From Escherichia coli O157:H7 (GTDB taxonomy: Bacteria > Pseudomonadota > Gammaproteobacteria > Enterobacterales > Enterobacteriaceae), in NCBI RefSeq assembly GCF_013167455.1, contig NZ_CP038330.1: 64,000 nucleotides of DNA; one strand, 5' to 3'. The position numbers were made by a program. Positions 3,001 to 12,000 of this stretch are shown one piece after another. How positions within the stretch are numbered: position 1 is the first letter of the stretch; each line of letters starts with the position of its first letter.

Positions 3001-6000
3001 CCGTGCAGTCTTCCCATATCTTCTGTCACAGGCATGAGCCTCAAGCTGGTTGTACTTGGATCTGTTTGCACTTTCCTCCCGGCGCTCACCAGTGATGAAA
3101 AGGATCTTCTTCCCCTTGAAGCGCTCCTGGTTATTAAGAGCTCTGCGGCCAACATCGATCTTCAAGGCTGATGAGCACCACCTTGTTTGGAGTGATGGCG
3201 ATTGCTGAGGGAAACGAAGGCGCGTACCAGGCTTAGAGCGCTTATGGTCTCTAGGCAGCACCAGAAGCCCCTCAGGCGTCTCTACACGATGGGGGTGGCT
3301 ATAGGCATTGTCTTTGAGCATTTCGCCCTCAAAGCCGCCCTCAAGCCACGAGAAGTACATTGGGATACCCAGTTCTTCCCCGAGCTGACGACAGTAATCA
3401 CGCATGAAGGCCCAATCCATCAACGAACTGCCTTCCTGACCATCAACATCATGGTGCCAGAACTCCACCTTTGACTTATCAACACCCATGTCCACCAGCC
3501 GCAAGTACGCAGCAATCGAGTCTTTGCCTCCAGACAGGCAAACAATGATGTGATCGTACAAACTCAGGTCCACATCCGGAGCGGAGAAGTACGTTGTTCT
3601 ATCGTCACAACGCTGACTGGAAGATATGCCGGTAAGAACCGACTCCAGTGATGGCAACACCACCTGGTCATCGAACAAATCTCCTTGGTTTTCTCGTCTC
3701 AACATAAGTCGCTCTTTTTTCTTTACTGGGTTGTTTTTATGATTTACAGTATTATAAAATGATACTGTGAAAAGTAAAGTTTTCAGAACGACTAATCACT
3801 CAGGAGAACTTGATAAGCACCAGAAAGCAATCTAAAGGTGGTTTTTCGGTGAGGTTAGTTCAGGGGCAACCTGCCGCTGCTGATTGGAAATCATCAAGAA
3901 GTGGCTTTTTGGTGGGGTTACGGTTTGAAGGGGTGAGTATGTGGGAACGTTGCACGGTTAAAGGGGGCCGCACATGAAAACGATAAAGCGGTTCATCGTA
4001 TGGGTGAATTACGGTCTTGAGGGTTGGAGCATTTTCGGATCGAGCGATGACTGGGATGAAGCGGTATCCATCCGTTCGGAAGCGATAGACGAATGCAATA
4101 TTGACGAGGAAGACATCATCTTGGCAGAAAACAAAAACGAGCTGGTGGTAAAACCTGCGGCCAAGCAAATGACGGAGTGGCACCGGGAACTGGAAGCCGT
4201 CCTTATGACCTTGGATGACTGCCAGATGGAATGTGACGGTATGACATGGGCAGTAAGCCACCTACTCAATGAAGCGGGTGTACCTCATGACTGCATGTAT
4301 GGCTTTGTGCGAAACGAACAGACCAAGGACATCGTGACACCGCATTTCTGGGTTGTCCTGGATGATGGGTGGCTGGTGGATCTGAGGCTACGCATGTGGC
4401 TGGGCGATCACGACAACATTCCTCACGGGGTATTCCATCCCGATAACGAGCCAGGACTTTTCTACAAGGGAGACCCGGTTCAAAACCATAAAGGGATGAG
4501 ACTGGGCAAAGCCGTCCTGGACATCATGACCGACGGAAAACTTTCACATGTGAAAGTTCCTGAACGACAAGACGGAGAGTAATAGCGTGGAATTTGATTA
4601 CGACAAGTCAGTATCAAACGCACATCTTGAGGCCGCAGGCTGGGGTATGGATGCCTTTAACCACTCCAACCCATTTGAGAGTCATGTCATCTATGTGCGT
4701 GACTACCGCAACGATCACATCCGCCTGTTCACCATCAAGCAGGCTGACTTCGACACGATAAAGCTGCCGCTTCACCTTACCTCCGACATGCTGGCTTCGG
4801 TGATCGCTGAGTTCGTATCGAAGGCAGCAAAAGGGAAGTTGAATACGAAGGAGTCCGACACGCTGGCTCCTGCCTTGGTTGGCTATGCCAAATCAACAGA
4901 AACCTACCGGAGCTGGCGGAGAGTTTCTGGAGCAACAGAGCGATTGCATATGGTCATCAATATCTATGCGGGTTCTGAATTGCTGAGACCTTTCATCGCT
5001 CGGGCTCCTGAGACCGTCCTGACGACCCAAGAGCTACTGGTCTTCTCATCACAGGTTAAGAGCATGGATGTATCCAATCATCCAGAGTGGTTTAGGGGCC
5101 GGAGGTAGTCATGAAGCCAGTTCTCTGGATATTCGTCCTGATCATCGCCCCTTTCGTCATTGCGAAAGTGGACCAATGGCGCAAACGCGGCATTGGAGAC
5201 ACCTGGGCGTGGTGGAAATCAGAGAACATGCCTTATGAGCTGCGCTCGGCCACTCTGTTTTTGTCCGAACAGGACATATCAACCACACAGCCGGTGCCCA
5301 TGCACGGCAGGGTTGATCAGGTGTACCAAACCAAGAATGGGGTTCTCATTCCCTTGGACACCAAGCTGCGCCAGGTAAACCACATCTATGAGTCGGACAT
5401 TATCCAGCTCTCGGTTTACCGGGTAATTCTGTCACACAAGTACAAGGCACCCGTTGCCAAGTACGGCTATGTCCGAACCGTTGTTGAGACAGCGGACGGG
5501 GATAGAGTCCGTTACATCAAGACAAACCTTCTCAGCGAAAAAGAAGTGGTCAAGCTGTGGCACCGCTATCAATCCATCCGTTCTGGTCAGGTAAAAACCT
5601 CCTGTTCCTGTGGCGGAAAGTTTCACATGTGAAAGTTCTGGATTGAATCAGGGTTGCCCGAATTGGGCAGCTAGGCGGGGTTGCATTTTTGAAAAGTCCT
5701 GTACGCTGGTTGGTATAGGAGGTGAATAGTGGCCCAGCTTAAACATAACCGCTTCGTCATGTTGGGGTCCTTGGTAGCGACGGTCGTAGCTGCCGCCAAT
5801 GGCTTGAGTTTTCTCACCCTTATGGCTGGTGGAATGACCCTTCTCCAGTTCATGGCTTGGAAGCAACAAGATGCTGTCCGGAGCCGGTTTAAAGCTGCGA
5901 AGGATGCGTTTGAAGCGTTGAACGTCATTGCGTTCGACAAGCACTGGGTAGGTTCAACCGCGACGGTCGCCAAAGTGTCGAACATGATCACTCCGCCCGA

Positions 6001-9000: not shown

Positions 9001-12000
9001 GAAAGTACGAAGACAAGGTTGAAGCTGACATCCAGAAAGCCAAGAGCTATGGCGTCAACGGGACACCAGCCACTTTTGTAGTGGACAACCATACCGGCAA
9101 GAGCCAGCTTCTCGGCGGCGCTCAACCGGCGCAAGCCATCATGGCCGTGATGCGAAAAATGATGATTGAGTCGCAACAAGACGACTCCGCGAACCAATAA
9201 AAACTTTCACATGTGAAAGTGGAGTGAGAACTGATGATCAAGATTACAACTAAATTGGGATGCCTTCTGGCGGGGCTGCTTGTCCTGTCGGCTTGCTCAA
9301 GCGTCCCTCAGCCAAACAACGAATACGCGAAGGCCTTGGATGATACCAAACAGGTATGCGCTGCCTGTGCCCTGGTTGGTAATGACCTGCTGGTTGCCCT
9401 CAACAAGTCATGCGACACCCCAATGACCCCCGAGACTCTTACAAGCGTCATGAACAGTAACCCGATGTTTGCCGCCATGATGGCAATTAACTCCATAGGT
9501 GGAACCGACTTCTATCAGGTTTACCGTGATGCGGCCATAGACACCCTGCGGTGCAATGAAATGGACAGTTGGCCTGATCGGACCAAGGTGCGTTTCCAGC
9601 AGCCCGACATGCAAAAGGCGCTGGCCTTGAGGGTTTCTGCCAGACAGCAGAAGGCAAATTAACTTTCACATGTGAAAGTCAGGCTCTCCGGGGCCTGATT
9701 TCACTATGAGGTGAATCTATGGAGTTACAAGAAGCAAAAGAGGCTCTCGATAGCCTTCATCCACACAAGGCCTCAGCGCCTTTGAGGCTTGTCATCCACC
9801 AGCCAGGTGGGATTGGTGGAACCCCTACAGTGGGGGTGAAAGCTATTCACGCAGGCTTTGACTGGGACAGCAACACCATCCTGATCTATCCGGAAGAGCA
9901 GCTCACCCGGTTGACGCCGGATGAGGTCGCCGCCATCACGAAGTCAGTATCGAAAGGACAGTCCTGGCATTCATATCAGCAGTTCAAGAAGTATCGGGAG
10001 CAGTTGGCCGAAGCCACGGAAGAAATTAATAGGCTCAGGGCTGAGCTGGGCAGGTATCAGAATAACGGGAGGGGGTAATGCTAAAACGCGGAATTATCAA
10101 TCTCGCTGCTAGTTACATCATTGTTGATGCCCTACTCCGGAATGCAGCAATTTGGATCTTTGGCTTGTCCTTCTCCGTTGGTGGCACTTACGTCACTGGC
10201 GAGGCCAGTACATGGGTCGTTTACCTAGCCACTTCTGGTGCCATGACACTCTGTTCTGTCGTAACAGCCTACCTGCTCGTGACCTATCACCGCTGGGGGC
10301 TGATGACGGCCAGGGTCTGGTTGCTATTGAGTGCCTGCCTAAACGGCTATGCCGTCTATTTGAGTAGCCACAACATCCAGTTGGTGGTGGCACTGCTTTC
10401 CAGCCTGTTTATTGCTTTGTGGATGCTCAAGACCCTTGAGCAACCAGCAGTGAAGGGGACGTACAAGGTAATCGCTGATCTTCACCGTCAGCTATGGGGA
10501 ATGTTGAAGGGGCAAACACAATGACGACGAATACTCAAAACGCGAACGCCAACCAGGTTCGGTCTTTACGCGACATGCTTGTCCCCGCCCTGTTGTTCTA
10601 TGTGGTGATGACGGCCATGTTTGTGGGTCTTGACGCATTCATGGATAAACCCACCAGCATGAACCTGCCATTTATGCCGTTCCTTGTCTCGATGGTGAGT
10701 TTTACCAGTGACGCACGTCGAGCGTGGGACTGGCGAAACGGGACCAAGGTTGTAGCTGTATTGACTGCGGTAGCCATGCTGTTGGCATTCATCTATCAGC
10801 TCGCGGTCGGAGAGATGAATCTCTTAGGGGTTGGTATATACCCGGCCACAGCCATCCTTCTGTTGGCAATCTCCTGGGTGATTCGCGCTATCGGAAAGAC
10901 AGCACCTTTCCAGTTCCTGGGGAGACACCTGGCGCGGTTTGGTGCATCGAAGTGGGTCCAGCGTACCGCCGCAGTCATTGTGCTCGCGGGAGGCCTTGCC
11001 ATCACTATCTATGCCTACTGGCTTAACCACGGGAGCTGATGATGATCATTGCAACGAAGAACGGCTTTCTGGTGGCCGCAGAACTAATCAGGGAAGAGGC
11101 CGGGTACTGGCTACTACAGCCTCGTGACCAAAAGACGCCGGTCAGGGTGAATAAGCAGGATAACAATAAACGCGCTTTCACGCATATGGGAGACGCCCTT
11201 CGCTGGGCCGGTGATCCTGAGCTTGCAAAGCAATTCGATGCCGAGGGGGAAGAACATGCAAATTCGTGACTACATGACAAAGTTGTTTGACGCATTTGGT
11301 GATGTGGAGGAAGTCACCCGAGAAATGCTTCTGGAGCAGGCGGAGCTCATTCATACGATCAGCGATAAGTGTCAGAGCACAGGCCTGTTTCTGGATAGTC
11401 AGGTTCGTTTCAACCAGTTCGTTCAAGAGATTGAGGCTGACGACAAGGTAGAGGATCGGTTGCTTCATGCTTGGTGCTGGGTAATGGACCGAATAGTGAA
11501 GGCTCCAACATCCTTTCACATGGATGGGGCTGTGATTTTGACAATGCCTCTGGTCGCCAGATACCTGCCACCGGTTGAACAGGAGCCGGAAACCATCGTG
11601 GTGAATCTCGATGAGGACTACAAGGCTCCTGTAGGCAACCAAACGCTCTGCGAGCTCGTTATGGAACGGAGGCATTGGCCGCAAGGTGCAACCTGTGCGA
11701 CCCAAGAAGCGGACGGGGGAGTCCTCTACTGGGACGCCCCGGTTGATGTGGTAGAGGAAGGCAGAAAGGTCGCCGGTAAGCACGGCATGATGGCCGAGAT
11801 CGGATTGAAACATCAGGTTGATGCCTGGTATGCAGATATGGACGAAACACGGCTCGCAACCGATTGGAACACCGCCGTCATTACGCCTCACTGCTTGCTG
11901 CTTTCCTATCTGGATGTGCTTCAAAAGAACAAAGTTCCCTTTGATGAAGGTGTGCAGCTCGCTGCCGAATGGGTGAAGCAACTTGGCGGGGAATTTCGTG

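What the first reader, a model, noticed from the sequence alone, without database searches (positions are those of the whole stretch)
5729..9679. SppA-like peptidase and DsbA-like oxidoreductase in an operon carrying a transfer-type activator box
The 5729-9662 gene string encodes membrane proteins, an S49 peptidase, a membrane-anchored CPFC thioredoxin-fold protein and a lipoprotein. It sits behind an M3 box and is bracketed by M1 palindromes. Envelope-processing enzymes under transfer control would fit a role in maturing mating-pore components.
Basis: inference. Interest (0 to 1): 0.45.

Follow-up and report, generated by a model that had tools for sequence, protein, structure and literature searches.

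The report
Known AcaCD-controlled IncC plasmid envelope-enzyme operon
This stretch is a well-conserved, already mapped operon of IncC multidrug-resistance plasmids: the plasmid's transfer activator AcaCD switches it on, it encodes a signal-peptide-peptidase-like protease and a DsbA-type disulfide oxidase, and the flanking palindromes are the plasmid's partition (parS) sites, but nobody has yet tested what the two enzymes do.

Summary
Window 5729-9662 carries six co-directional genes, vcrx012 to vcrx017 of pVCR94. They encode two small membrane proteins, a soluble protein with HTH-like repeats, a membrane-anchored S49/SppA-type peptidase, a membrane-anchored CPFC DsbA and a lipoprotein.

The window is the start of an IncC plasmid. 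Positions 5484-9784 are base-for-base identical to pVCR94deltaX, the plasmid used for published ChIP-exo, 5'-RACE and RNA-seq.

- **M3 box:** this is the AcaCD site at 5650-5678, with a transcription start at 5713-5715. Downstream genes are silent without AcaCD.
- **M1 palindrome:** this is the IncC parS (ParB) site. It marks partition sites, not operon boundaries. A third copy lies inside the string at 9205, and AcaCD-dependent transcription continues to about 13.2 kb.

Transfer-activator control is therefore already shown. A role in maturing the mating pore is not shown. I found no deletion of the peptidase or DsbA gene in the papers searched.

Indirect evidence is mixed. In the related plasmid Rts1, a DsbA paralogue is needed for mating-pair formation, but the closest full-length homologue is dispensable. 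The S49-DsbA pair is strongly conserved across distant relatives.

Verdict: real, ordinary and already described. Only the enzymes' function remains open.

The parts
4542..4555 (.). parS core (IncC ParB-binding palindrome), inside vcrx009 near its 3' end
   Evidence: Exact TTTCACATGTGAAA, with AAAC/GTTC flanks. It corresponds to the 'R55_6' parS listed in PMC10954446.
5621..5634 (.). parS core overlapping the stop codon of vcrx011. The 22-bp site 5617-5638 ends 11 bp before the AcaCD motif.
   Evidence: PMC10954446 notes a parS next to the AcaCD box of the R55_9/vcrx012 promoter.
5650..5678 (+).
   Evidence: Table S3 of PMC4207636 gives a ChIP-exo peak summit at 6505 and a motif at 6466-6494 (p = 2.7e-9) in pVCR94. 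This equals window coordinates plus 816, and the sequence is identical.
5713..5715 (+). AcaCD-dependent transcription start site. A -10-like TACGCT lies at 5702-5707, a Shine-Dalgarno GGAGGTG at 5718-5724, and the GTG start at 5729.
   Evidence: 5'-RACE start at pVCR94 6529-6531. The sequence was read.
5729..6202 (+). vcrx012: 157-aa protein with one N-terminal TM segment. The family is narrow.
   Evidence: Only 13 relatives were found in 1.84 billion representatives. No Pfam, NCBIfam, PHROG or PADLOC hit.
6213..6506 (+). vcrx013: 97-aa small polytopic membrane protein
   Evidence: It is conserved in the pAQU-like, Marinobacterium and Comamonas plasmids, but its cysteines are not.
6511..7365 (+). 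vcrx014: 284-aa soluble protein whose C-terminal half holds two HTH-like repeats
   Evidence: Weak BcepMu gp16 and phrog_925 HTH hits. The AF2 model is confident only at residues 175-280. The family is restricted to A/C-like elements.
7365..8324 (+). vcrx015: membrane-anchored S49 (SppA 36K-type) serine peptidase with Ser151/Lys203
   Evidence: S151 and K203 are invariant in 15 homologues. It is about 52% identical to chromosomal SppA of Pseudomonas and relatives in the alignment, and 55% by BLASTP.
8340..9200 (+). vcrx016: membrane-anchored alpha-class DsbA. It has CPFC at 123-126, a second cysteine pair C169/C217, and a Thr242-Pro243 cis-Pro loop.
   Evidence: best PDB match 4N30, PaDsbA2, 3e-28. 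All six residues are invariant in 11 homologues.
9205..9218 (.). parS core in the 33-bp gap between vcrx016 and vcrx017, inside the transcription unit
   Evidence: This is the 'R55_13' site of PMC10954446.
9234..9662 (+). vcrx017: 142-aa lipoprotein (lipobox LSAC, Cys21). The mature part has 4 Cys, including CAAC at 42-45.
   Evidence: It is not conserved outside A/C plasmids.
9664..9677 (.). parS core just after the vcrx017 stop codon
   Evidence: This is the 'R55_14' site.
9678..9699 (+). GC-rich RNA hairpin with a weak U tail, possibly a partial terminator or attenuator before vcrx018
   Evidence: Fold energy -24.6 kcal/mol, z = -4.3. RNA-seq is lower at vcrx018-020. The consensus terminator scan did not call it.
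9719..13201 (+). Downstream part of the same AcaCD-dependent transcription unit (vcrx018-vcrx025). It includes small membrane proteins, a thermonuclease-family protein (12344-12871) and an HU-like protein (12929-13201).
   Evidence: Annotation. RNA-seq is 0-1 in the acaCD deletion and 19-2999 on induction, and no second AcaCD site is listed.

Best explanation
This is the promoter-proximal half of the vcrx012-vcrx025 backbone operon of an IncC (A/C2) conjugative plasmid.

**Shown**
- The FlhDC-like activator AcaCD binds the box at 5650-5678, which overlaps the -35 position. Transcription starts at 5713-5715.
- The genes downstream are essentially off without AcaCD. They are therefore co-induced with the tra genes.
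- The palindromes are parS sites of the plasmid's ParABS system, whose ParB carries a KorB domain.

**Inferred from sequence**
- vcrx015 is an N-in, membrane-anchored SppA-type Ser/Lys peptidase with its catalytic domain in the periplasm.
- vcrx016 is a membrane-anchored DsbA of the alpha class, the same class as PaDsbA2. By analogy it would be a strongly oxidising thiol oxidase.

**Most likely mechanism (inference)**
When AcaCD switches on the type IV secretion system, many exported and often cysteine-rich Tra proteins are made together. The plasmid supplies its own oxidase to form their disulfides. That oxidase would work alongside the tra-operon isomerase DsbC/DsbP. The plasmid also supplies its own signal-peptide peptidase to clear leader peptides or misassembled exported proteins from the inner membrane. 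This would make transfer less dependent on the envelope machinery of whichever host the broad-host-range plasmid is in. I expect an accessory role that depends on host and conditions, not an absolute requirement. ParB bound at the parS next to the box may modulate activation, as others have proposed.
For: **Identity**
- 100% identity to more than 700 IncC plasmids.
- 0 mismatches to pVCR94deltaX over 4301 bp.

**Regulation**
- ChIP-exo, the motif and the 5'-RACE start site.
- RNA-seq.
- A similar box sits about 55 nt before the start codon of the vcrx012 homologue in a pAQU-like Vibrio plasmid.

**parS**
- 8 exact copies against 0.34 expected.
- Identified as ParB sites, with EMSA on consensus sites.

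**Enzymes**
- Domain hits and PDB matches.
- Catalytic residues invariant.
- TM anchors.

**Selection**
- The adjacent S49-DsbA pair is kept in Vibrio, Marinobacterium and Comamonas plasmids at 63-72% and 55-56% identity. The flanking genes diverge or are replaced.
- The pair is present in 1077 PLSDB records, against 1051 records with the A/C repA.

**Link to conjugation**
- PaDsbA2 homologues sit directly after the T4SS ATPase gene in pKLC102.
- Rts1 Orf206, a DsbA paralogue, is needed for mating-pair formation. Its deletion drops conjugation to 0.0058 of wild type.
- IncHI1B plasmids carry an S49 gene in the mobH-traD-DUF4400 operon.
Against: - I found no direct test of vcrx015 or vcrx016.
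- The closest full-length homologue of vcrx016 in Rts1 (orf199) lies in a deletion, orf198-200, that leaves conjugation at 0.39 of wild type. A paralogue is present, so this may reflect redundancy.
- No S49 homologue was seen in the 105-199 kb transfer region of Rts1.
- In relatives the pair sits between rep and parAB, not inside tra operons.
- The Rts1 paper's table lists no SXT homologue for Orf206, yet SXT transfers well.
- E. coli DsbB reportedly does not reoxidise PaDsbA2. No DsbB-like partner is encoded here.
- TIGR00706 scores 1 bit below its curated cutoff.
- vcrx012 itself changes only about 4-fold with AcaCD, and the change is not significant.
Confidence: 0.55

Rival explanations
1. 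Strong form of the first reader's idea. The peptidase and the oxidase are dedicated, required maturation factors for mating-pore or pilus components, for example pilin processing or TraN folding. Deleting either would abolish or severely reduce IncC transfer in standard matings.
For: - The genes are co-induced with tra genes by AcaCD.
- vcrx016 is the only DsbA-class gene found in the window.
- Its paralogue Orf206 in Rts1 is required for mating-pair formation even in dsb+ hosts.
- A PaDsbA2-type DsbA is embedded in the pKLC102 T4SS cluster.
- An S49 gene sits in the relaxase/coupling-protein operon of IncHI1B plasmids.
- Conservation is very high.
Against: - The closest Rts1 homologue (orf199) is dispensable.
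- Rts1 needs S26-type peptidases (Orf185, Orf215), not an S49 one.
- From my own recall, IncC has a TrhF (S26) homologue in its tra operons, so pilin processing would already be covered. This was not checked here.
- The pair maps to the rep-par side of the backbone in relatives.
- The Rts1 paper's table lists no SXT homologue for Orf206.
Confidence: 0.18
2. The operon acts mainly in the new host after entry, or as a general host-range kit. AcaCD is expressed before the repressors accumulate in a transconjugant. The enzymes would then adapt the recipient's envelope, through oxidative folding and membrane quality control, to the burden of plasmid-encoded exported proteins. They would improve establishment or fitness, not donor ability.
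For: - The same transcription unit carries a nuclease, an HU-like protein and small membrane proteins, which are not obvious T4SS parts.
- The pair lies next to rep and par in all relatives examined.
- The S49 enzyme resembles housekeeping SppA of Pseudomonas and Oceanospirillales at about 52-55% identity. This suggests a recruited housekeeping function.
Against: - No data exist on timing or on recipient phenotype.
- The same facts fit an accessory role in the donor.
- TraDIS for recipient-side exclusion flagged vcrx018 and vcrx019, but not vcrx015 or vcrx016.
Confidence: 0.17
3. The genes are unrelated cargo, or an exclusion, defence or anti-defence function. Alternatively the S49 gene is a remnant of a phage prohead protease. 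Its position behind an AcaCD box would then have no bearing on envelope maturation.
For: - PHROG_53 'head maturation protease' matches as strongly (3.3e-44) as the SppA models.
- Neighbouring vcrx018 has phage-family relatives.
- vcrx018 and vcrx019 were TraDIS candidates for exclusion.
Against: - No PADLOC hit for any of ten operon proteins.
- No capsid, portal or scaffold genes nearby.
- The protein has an SppA-like N-terminal TM anchor and is about 52-55% identical to chromosomal SppA.
- Only sfx was validated as an exclusion factor.
- Near-universal retention and strong conservation argue against dispensable cargo.
Confidence: 0.05

Closest known systems
vcrx012-vcrx025 AcaCD-regulated operon of pVCR94 (Carraro et al. 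2014, PLoS Genet, PMC4207636)
   Same: It is the same locus. The sequence is identical over 4301 bp. The AcaCD motif, start site and genes are the same.
   Different: Nothing differs at the sequence level. The paper treats the genes as 'unknown function' and does not discuss the peptidase or the DsbA.
IncC parS / ParB (KorB-domain) partition sites (PMC10954446, NAR 2024), which resemble the KorB operator sites of RP4
   Same: The 14-bp core TTTCACATGTGAAA is identical, with the conserved right-flank GT. The four copies here correspond to the published R55_6, R55_08, R55_13 and R55_14 sites. That paper already notes the parS next to the vcrx012 AcaCD box.
   Different: EMSA was done on three representative sites, not on these four copies. 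A regulatory effect of ParB on this promoter is a hypothesis in that paper and has not been shown.
Signal peptide peptidase A, 36K type (B. subtilis SppA, PDB 3RST/4KWB; E. coli SppA and SohB)
   Same: It has the S49 fold and the Ser/Lys dyad (GASGGYY Ser151, GEHK Lys203). It has an N-terminal membrane anchor with the catalytic domain outside the cytoplasm.
   Different: It is plasmid-borne and under a conjugation activator. It scores 1 bit below the TIGR00706 cutoff. It is always paired with a DsbA gene. Its substrates are unknown.
PaDsbA2 (PDB 4N30) and alpha-DsbA proteins (Arts et al. 2013, PMC3870256)
   Same: It has the CPFC active site, the extra disulfide pair in the helical domain, and a Thr before the cis-Pro. 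PaDsbA2 homologues are also carried on a conjugative element, next to the T4SS ATPase gene of pKLC102.
   Different: vcrx016 has an N-terminal TM anchor and a linker of about 70 residues. It sits far from the tra genes, in an MPF_F plasmid. Its redox properties have not been measured.
Rts1 (IncT) Orf206 and Orf199 DsbA-family proteins (PMC10838148)
   Same: They have the same architecture and length and a CXXC at about residue 121-126. They occur in a MOBH/MPF_F plasmid with an FlhDC-type activator.
   Different: Rts1 has two paralogues. Orf206, beside traL, is needed for mating-pair formation. Orf199 is more similar to vcrx016 but is dispensable. IncC has one gene, located elsewhere and paired with an S49 peptidase.
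F TrbB, R27 DsbC and IncA/C DsbP (DsbC-type isomerases of F-like T4SS)
   Same: They are periplasmic thioredoxin-fold CXXC proteins encoded by conjugative elements and co-regulated with tra genes.
   Different: They belong to a different family. vcrx016 scores 18.5 bits on TrbB (cutoff 132) and 23.1 on DsbG (cutoff 124). DsbP did not appear among its PDB matches. vcrx016 has monomeric DsbA-type architecture with a helical insertion, not the dimeric DsbC type.

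Membership tests
AcaCD regulon promoter of IncA/C plasmids | Sequence matching the AcaCD motif upstream of the gene | tested here: met
   The published 29-bp motif (p = 2.7e-9) is identical at window 5650-5678.
AcaCD regulon promoter of IncA/C plasmids | In vivo AcaCD occupancy, and a start site about 35 bp downstream of the motif | tested here: met
   From published data on the identical sequence, not from a new experiment: ChIP-exo peak height 5567 and 5'-RACE start at 6529-6531, which is window 5713-5715.
AcaCD regulon promoter of IncA/C plasmids | Transcript levels depend on AcaCD | tested here: met
   Published RNA-seq gives vcrx013-017 at 0 in the acaCD deletion and 243-1262 on induction. 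vcrx012 itself goes from 33 to 132, which is not significant.
IncC parS (ParB binding site) | 14-bp core TTTCACATGTGAAA with AAAC/GTTT-like flanks, the right-hand GT conserved, and many copies per plasmid | tested here: met
   8 exact cores in the window. All four local copies have GT on the right.
IncC parS (ParB binding site) | Bound by IncC ParB | not testable with these tools
   EMSA is published for the consensus site, the PparA site and an SGI1 site only.
Peptidase S49 / SppA 36K type | S49 domain and family-level score | tested here: inconclusive
   PF01343 scores 4.2e-35. TIGR00706 scores 154.4 bits against a curated cutoff of 155.45. Membership of S49 is clear. The equivalog call to SppA falls just short.
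Peptidase S49 / SppA 36K type | Ser nucleophile and Lys general base conserved | tested here: met
   S151 and K203 are invariant in 15 sequences, including chromosomal SppAs.
Peptidase S49 / SppA 36K type | N-terminal membrane anchor with the catalytic domain on the outer face | tested here: met
   Hydrophobic segment at residues 37-60, preceded by an Arg/Lys-rich stretch. The topology is inferred from the positive-inside rule.
Peptidase S49 / SppA 36K type | Cleaves remnant signal peptides | not testable with these tools
   This needs biochemistry.
DsbA family, alpha-DsbA (PaDsbA2) subclass | Thioredoxin fold with inserted helical domain and a CXXC motif | tested here: met
   PF13462 scores 1.7e-17 and PF01323 scores 1.2e-14. 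CPFC lies at 123-126. 4N30 scores 3e-28.
DsbA family, alpha-DsbA (PaDsbA2) subclass | Second conserved cysteine pair, and Thr before the cis-Pro | tested here: met
   C169, C217, T242 and P243 are invariant in 11 sequences. They align with Cys111 and Cys157 of PaDsbA2.
DsbA family, alpha-DsbA (PaDsbA2) subclass | Oxidising redox potential and reoxidation by a DsbB | not testable with these tools
   PaDsbA2 has a potential of -67.5 mV. It is reoxidised by the Pseudomonas DsbBs but reportedly not by E. coli DsbB.
F-type T4SS TrbB/DsbC-type isomerase | Family model score above cutoff | tested here: not met
   TIGR02738 TrbB scores 18.5 bits against a cutoff of 132. DsbG NF008657 scores 23.1 against 124.
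Phage S49 prohead (head maturation) protease | S49 domain within a capsid-assembly gene cluster (portal, scaffold, major capsid) | tested here: not met
   phrog_53 matches at 3.3e-44. There are no structural phage genes nearby, and the protein is membrane-anchored.
Bacterial lipoprotein (vcrx017) | Signal peptide ending in a lipobox [LVI][ASTVI][GAS]C | tested here: met
   The N-terminus reads ...LLVLSAC with Cys21. This was read by eye, and no SignalP run was available.

The most novel reading that the evidence does not exclude
The S49 peptidase and the alpha-DsbA form a dedicated two-enzyme module. It would be conserved across the whole A/C-like plasmid superfamily, and it would mature one specific plasmid-encoded exported substrate, such as the pilin or TraN. 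KorB-like ParB loaded at the parS sites beside and inside the operon would gate AcaCD activation. Partition status and transfer competence would then be coupled at this promoter.
Probability: 0.12. Interest if true: 0.55.

Novelty: already known. Interest (0 to 1): 0.18.

Why it matters
IncC plasmids are among the main vehicles of carbapenemase and multidrug resistance in enterobacteria and Vibrio.

The regulatory facts here are already in the literature: the AcaCD promoter, the parS sites and the extent of the operon. The finding adds nothing new to them.

What remains open is modest but real. These plasmids and their distant relatives keep a paired SppA-type peptidase and a strongly oxidising-type DsbA under the transfer activator, and it is not known why.

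If the pair turned out to be needed for transfer in some hosts, it would be a periplasm-exposed, druggable point in conjugation. It would also help explain the broad host range.

Tried and rejected
1. **DsbB-like partner.** I looked for a plasmid-encoded partner for the DsbA among the small membrane proteins. vcrx013 has 4 Cys, but they lie in hydrophobic segments and are not conserved in the Comamonas homologue. vcrx012 and vcrx020 have no Cys. Rejected.
2. **Phage prohead protease origin of the S49 gene.** Rejected on context, the membrane anchor and similarity to chromosomal SppA.
3. **Defence-system membership.** No PADLOC hits.
4. **Statistical enrichment of M3-like boxes.** There is none at 2 mismatches (19 found against 22 expected). 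Only four boxes with 0-1 mismatch stand out.
5. **Intrinsic terminator ending the unit at 9662.** The consensus scan called none. Folding shows a stable hairpin with a weak U tail, and RNA-seq continues beyond it.
6. **Structure prediction of vcrx014.** Mean pLDDT 58 and pTM 0.27 from a 9-sequence alignment. This is too poor for a fold search, so none was run.
7. **Family searches for the other proteins.** vcrx012 has 13 relatives in 1.84 billion proteins. vcrx017 has no relatives outside A/C plasmids. Neither search was informative.
8. **Literature search for a mutant phenotype of vcrx015 or vcrx016.** Nothing found. Three relevant subscription-journal papers were not held: the DsbP paper in JBC 2014, Lang 2012 and Fricke 2009.
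9. **IS91-family insertion in some Salmonella plasmids.** It sits upstream in vcrx011 and leaves the parS, the box and the operon intact, so it is not a natural knockout.

Full report
**What the window is.** A megablast of 5000-10500 finds 1079 plasmid records. Of these, 750 are at 99% identity or more, and they are typed IncC, MOBH and MPF_F. In several records the match sits at the same coordinates as in the window, so the window begins at repA of an IncC plasmid. Window 5484-9784 is identical, with 0 mismatches in 4301 bp, to pVCR94deltaX positions 6300-10600. The coordinate offset is a constant 816. The six genes of the finding are therefore vcrx012 to vcrx017. All published pVCR94 experiments apply to this sequence directly.

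**Checking the observation.** The six co-directional ORFs are present as described.
- vcrx012 (5729-6202) has one N-terminal hydrophobic segment.
- vcrx013 (6213-6506) is a small polytopic membrane protein.
- vcrx014 (6511-7365) is soluble.
- vcrx015 (7365-8324) is an S49 peptidase. Pfam PF01343 scores 4e-35. NCBIfam SppA_dom scores 154.4 bits against a cutoff of 155.45. B. subtilis SppA structures score 1e-30. It has a TM anchor at residues 37-60, preceded by a basic stretch.
- vcrx016 (8340-9200) has Thioredoxin_4 and DSBA domains, CPFC at 123-126 and a TM anchor at 11-29.
- vcrx017 (9234-9662) has a lipobox, LSAC.

The palindrome TTTCACATGTGAAA occurs eight times exactly in 64 kb, against 0.34 expected. 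Further copies lie at 9205, inside the string, and at 4542. The box TTGCCCGAATTGGGCAGC lies at 5653-5670.

**What the motifs are.**

The M3 box is the AcaCD site. Table S3 of Carraro et al. 2014 lists a ChIP-exo peak, a 29-bp motif at pVCR94 6466-6494 (window 5650-5678, p = 2.7e-9) and a 5'-RACE start at 6529-6531 (window 5713-5715) for vcrx012. In their RNA-seq, vcrx013 to vcrx025 read 0-1 in the acaCD deletion and 19-2999 when AcaCD is induced. vcrx012 itself changes only from 33 to 132. No second AcaCD site is listed before vcrx035/036. A stable hairpin at 9678-9699 (z = -4.3), together with lower counts for vcrx018-020, suggests partial attenuation there.

By pattern alone the box family is not enriched: 19 hits against 22 expected at two mismatches. 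Only four boxes with 0-1 mismatch stand out, at 5658, 22670, 30374 and 40077.

The M1 palindrome is the IncC parS. The 2024 NAR paper (PMC10954446) identifies this exact 14-bp core with AAAC/GTTT flanks as the ParB site. It shows EMSA on representative sites and lists 14 copies in R55. Four of those copies correspond to the ones here. The paper also notes explicitly that a parS lies next to the AcaCD box of the R55_9/vcrx012 promoter, and it proposes ParB cross-talk.

Three of the four strong boxes in the window lie within 75 bp of a parS. By a rough calculation this is unlikely by chance, about 6e-5.

**The two enzymes.** In an alignment of 15 S49 homologues, Ser151 (GASGGYY) and Lys203 (GEHK) are invariant. 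The set includes chromosomal SppAs of Pseudomonas, Marinobacter and Amphritea at about 51-53% identity in the alignment (55% by BLASTP), as well as the pND6-1 and IncHI1B plasmid S49 proteins. The gene looks like a recruited 36K-type SppA.

For the DsbA, the best solved relative is PaDsbA2 (4N30, 3e-28). Six residues are invariant in 11 homologues: the CPFC cysteines, a second pair (C169 and C217), and Thr242-Pro243. These are the defining marks of the alpha-DsbA subclass described by Arts et al. 2013. PaDsbA2 is among the most oxidising oxidoreductases measured (-67.5 mV). It was undetectable under laboratory conditions and was reportedly not reoxidised by E. coli DsbB. Homologues of PaDsbA2 at 94-100% identity sit right after the T4SS ATPase gene in pKLC102-type elements. 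The closest structural relative is therefore also conjugation-associated. vcrx016 is not a TrbB/DsbC-type protein (18.5 bits against a cutoff of 132). It is distinct from the tra-operon dsbC (vcrx077) that AcaCD also controls.

**Conservation and context elsewhere.** The adjacent S49-DsbA pair recurs in three distant plasmids:
- a pAQU-like Vibrio plasmid, at 72% and 55% identity;
- a Marinobacterium plasmid, at 71% and 56%;
- Comamonas plasmids, at 63% and 55%.

In the Marinobacterium and Comamonas plasmids it lies on the rep side of a parA-parB(KorB)-HTH cluster. The neighbouring genes are much less conserved or are replaced. At least 18 contig lengths are shared between the two homologue lists, which points to frequent co-occurrence. 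The parS core is exact in the Vibrio locus (5 copies) and the Marinobacterium locus (11 copies). A similar activator box sits about 55 nt before the vcrx012 homologue in the Vibrio plasmid. Within PLSDB the pair is found in 1077 records, against 1051 records for the A/C repA. It is core backbone under purifying selection.

**Evidence bearing on function.** I found no report of a vcrx015 or vcrx016 mutant. vcrx018-019 were deleted in an exclusion study, but only sfx was validated there as an exclusion factor.

The best proxy is the systematic deletion of Rts1 (IncT), which has the same MOBH/MPF_F lineage and an FlhDC-type activator. Rts1 has two homologues of vcrx016.
- Orf206 lies beside traL and is 35% identical over the catalytic domain. 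Its deletion drops conjugation to 0.0058 of wild type and mobilisation to 0.0011. It is therefore a mating-pair formation factor even in dsb+ hosts.
- The more similar full-length homologue, at 139221-140129, is 37% identical (2e-63). It lies in the orf198-200 deletion, which leaves conjugation at 0.39 of wild type.

No S49 homologue was detected in the 105-199 kb transfer region of Rts1, and Rts1 relies on two S26 peptidases. IncHI1B plasmids, by contrast, carry an S49 gene (30% identity) in the mobH-traD-DUF4400 operon. The Rts1 paper's table lists no SXT homologue for Orf206.

**Interpretation.** Two things are settled: what the locus is, and that AcaCD controls it. The parS sites are partition sites, possibly with a regulatory side role, and not operon boundaries.

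For mechanism, I think the most likely reading is accessory. When the T4SS is induced, the plasmid co-expresses its own periplasm-facing oxidase and signal-peptide peptidase. Oxidative folding of cysteine-rich Tra proteins and clearance of leader peptides then do not depend on the host. That F-like TraN, TraU and TraH are rich in cysteines is established knowledge and was not tested here. This reading fits the regulation, the conservation, the conjugation-linked relatives and the broad host range. It also fits the dispensability of the closest Rts1 homologue in E. coli-to-E. coli matings.

The strong version, required maturation factors, and a recipient-side or host-adaptation role both remain possible. 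Cargo, defence and phage-remnant readings are unlikely.

**Novelty.** The sequence is identical to hundreds of database plasmids. The promoter, regulator, start site and expression were published in 2014. The palindromes were published as parS in 2024, including their adjacency to this promoter. The RefSeq annotation already names the S49 peptidase and the DsbA. The only open item is the biological role of the two enzymes. This is a reasonable small experimental question, not a surprising finding.

Noticed in passing
window 4542, 5621, 9205, 9664, 14988, 22731, 40150, 43565: Eight exact parS cores. Four are packed into 4.5-9.7 kb, just downstream of repA. Three of the four strongest AcaCD-like boxes (5658, 22670, 40077) lie within 75 bp of a parS. 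The parS is upstream of the box at the vcrx012 promoter, but downstream of it, over the start site or 5' UTR, at the other two. This suggests different modes of ParB interference.
   Followed up: partly
window 6511-7365 (vcrx014): This soluble protein is highly induced by AcaCD. Its C-terminal half holds two tandem beta-hairpin plus HTH-like repeats (about residues 175-207 and 232-262), and the pAQU-like homologue has extra repeats. It gives only weak BcepMu gp16 and phrog_925 HTH hits. The AF2 model is confident only in this part. It is possibly a DNA-binding protein.
   Followed up: partly
window 10078-10524 and 10521-11039: RefSeq names these genes 'Fe3+-siderophore ABC transporter permease' (148 aa) and 'nitrite reductase' (172 aa). 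They are small proteins with 3-5 TM segments and had no family match in NCBIfam, PHROGs or PADLOC here. The names look like over-annotation. The first one (vcrx019) was a TraDIS candidate in a published exclusion screen but was not validated.
   Followed up: partly
window 9678-9699: A stable GC-rich hairpin directly follows the parS after vcrx017 (-24.6 kcal/mol, z = -4.3) and has only a weak U tail. Published RNA-seq dips at vcrx018-020 and rises again at vcrx021-024. This hints at attenuation, or at an unmapped internal promoter.
   Followed up: partly
L002 (NZ_CP009410.1) 1018-2479, equivalent to window ~5111-5632: Some Salmonella IncC plasmids carry an IS91-family element inserted in vcrx011, just upstream. 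The parS, the AcaCD box and the operon remain intact.
   Followed up: yes
L005 (IncFIB/IncHI1B Klebsiella plasmid) 5905-7817: A longer S49 peptidase (378 aa, 30% identical) is followed by a NERD-type nuclease gene. Both sit in the mobH-traD-DUF4400 transfer operon. This echoes the peptidase and thermonuclease found in the IncC operon.
   Followed up: no
L006 (Marinobacterium contig) 14149-15280: A tight array of at least six exact IncC-type parS cores lies just upstream of an endonuclease and the parA-parB(KorB) genes, spaced roughly 150-260 bp apart. This is a much denser centromere-like cluster than in IncC.
   Followed up: no
window 45000-62000: GC content rises to 57-66%, against about 50-53% in the backbone. 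This is consistent with an inserted resistance or transposon region interrupting the backbone.
   Followed up: no
window 2590-3705 (- strand): A gene of the phosphoadenosine-phosphosulfate reductase family lies between repA and the operon. Its role in the plasmid backbone is unexplained.
   Followed up: no
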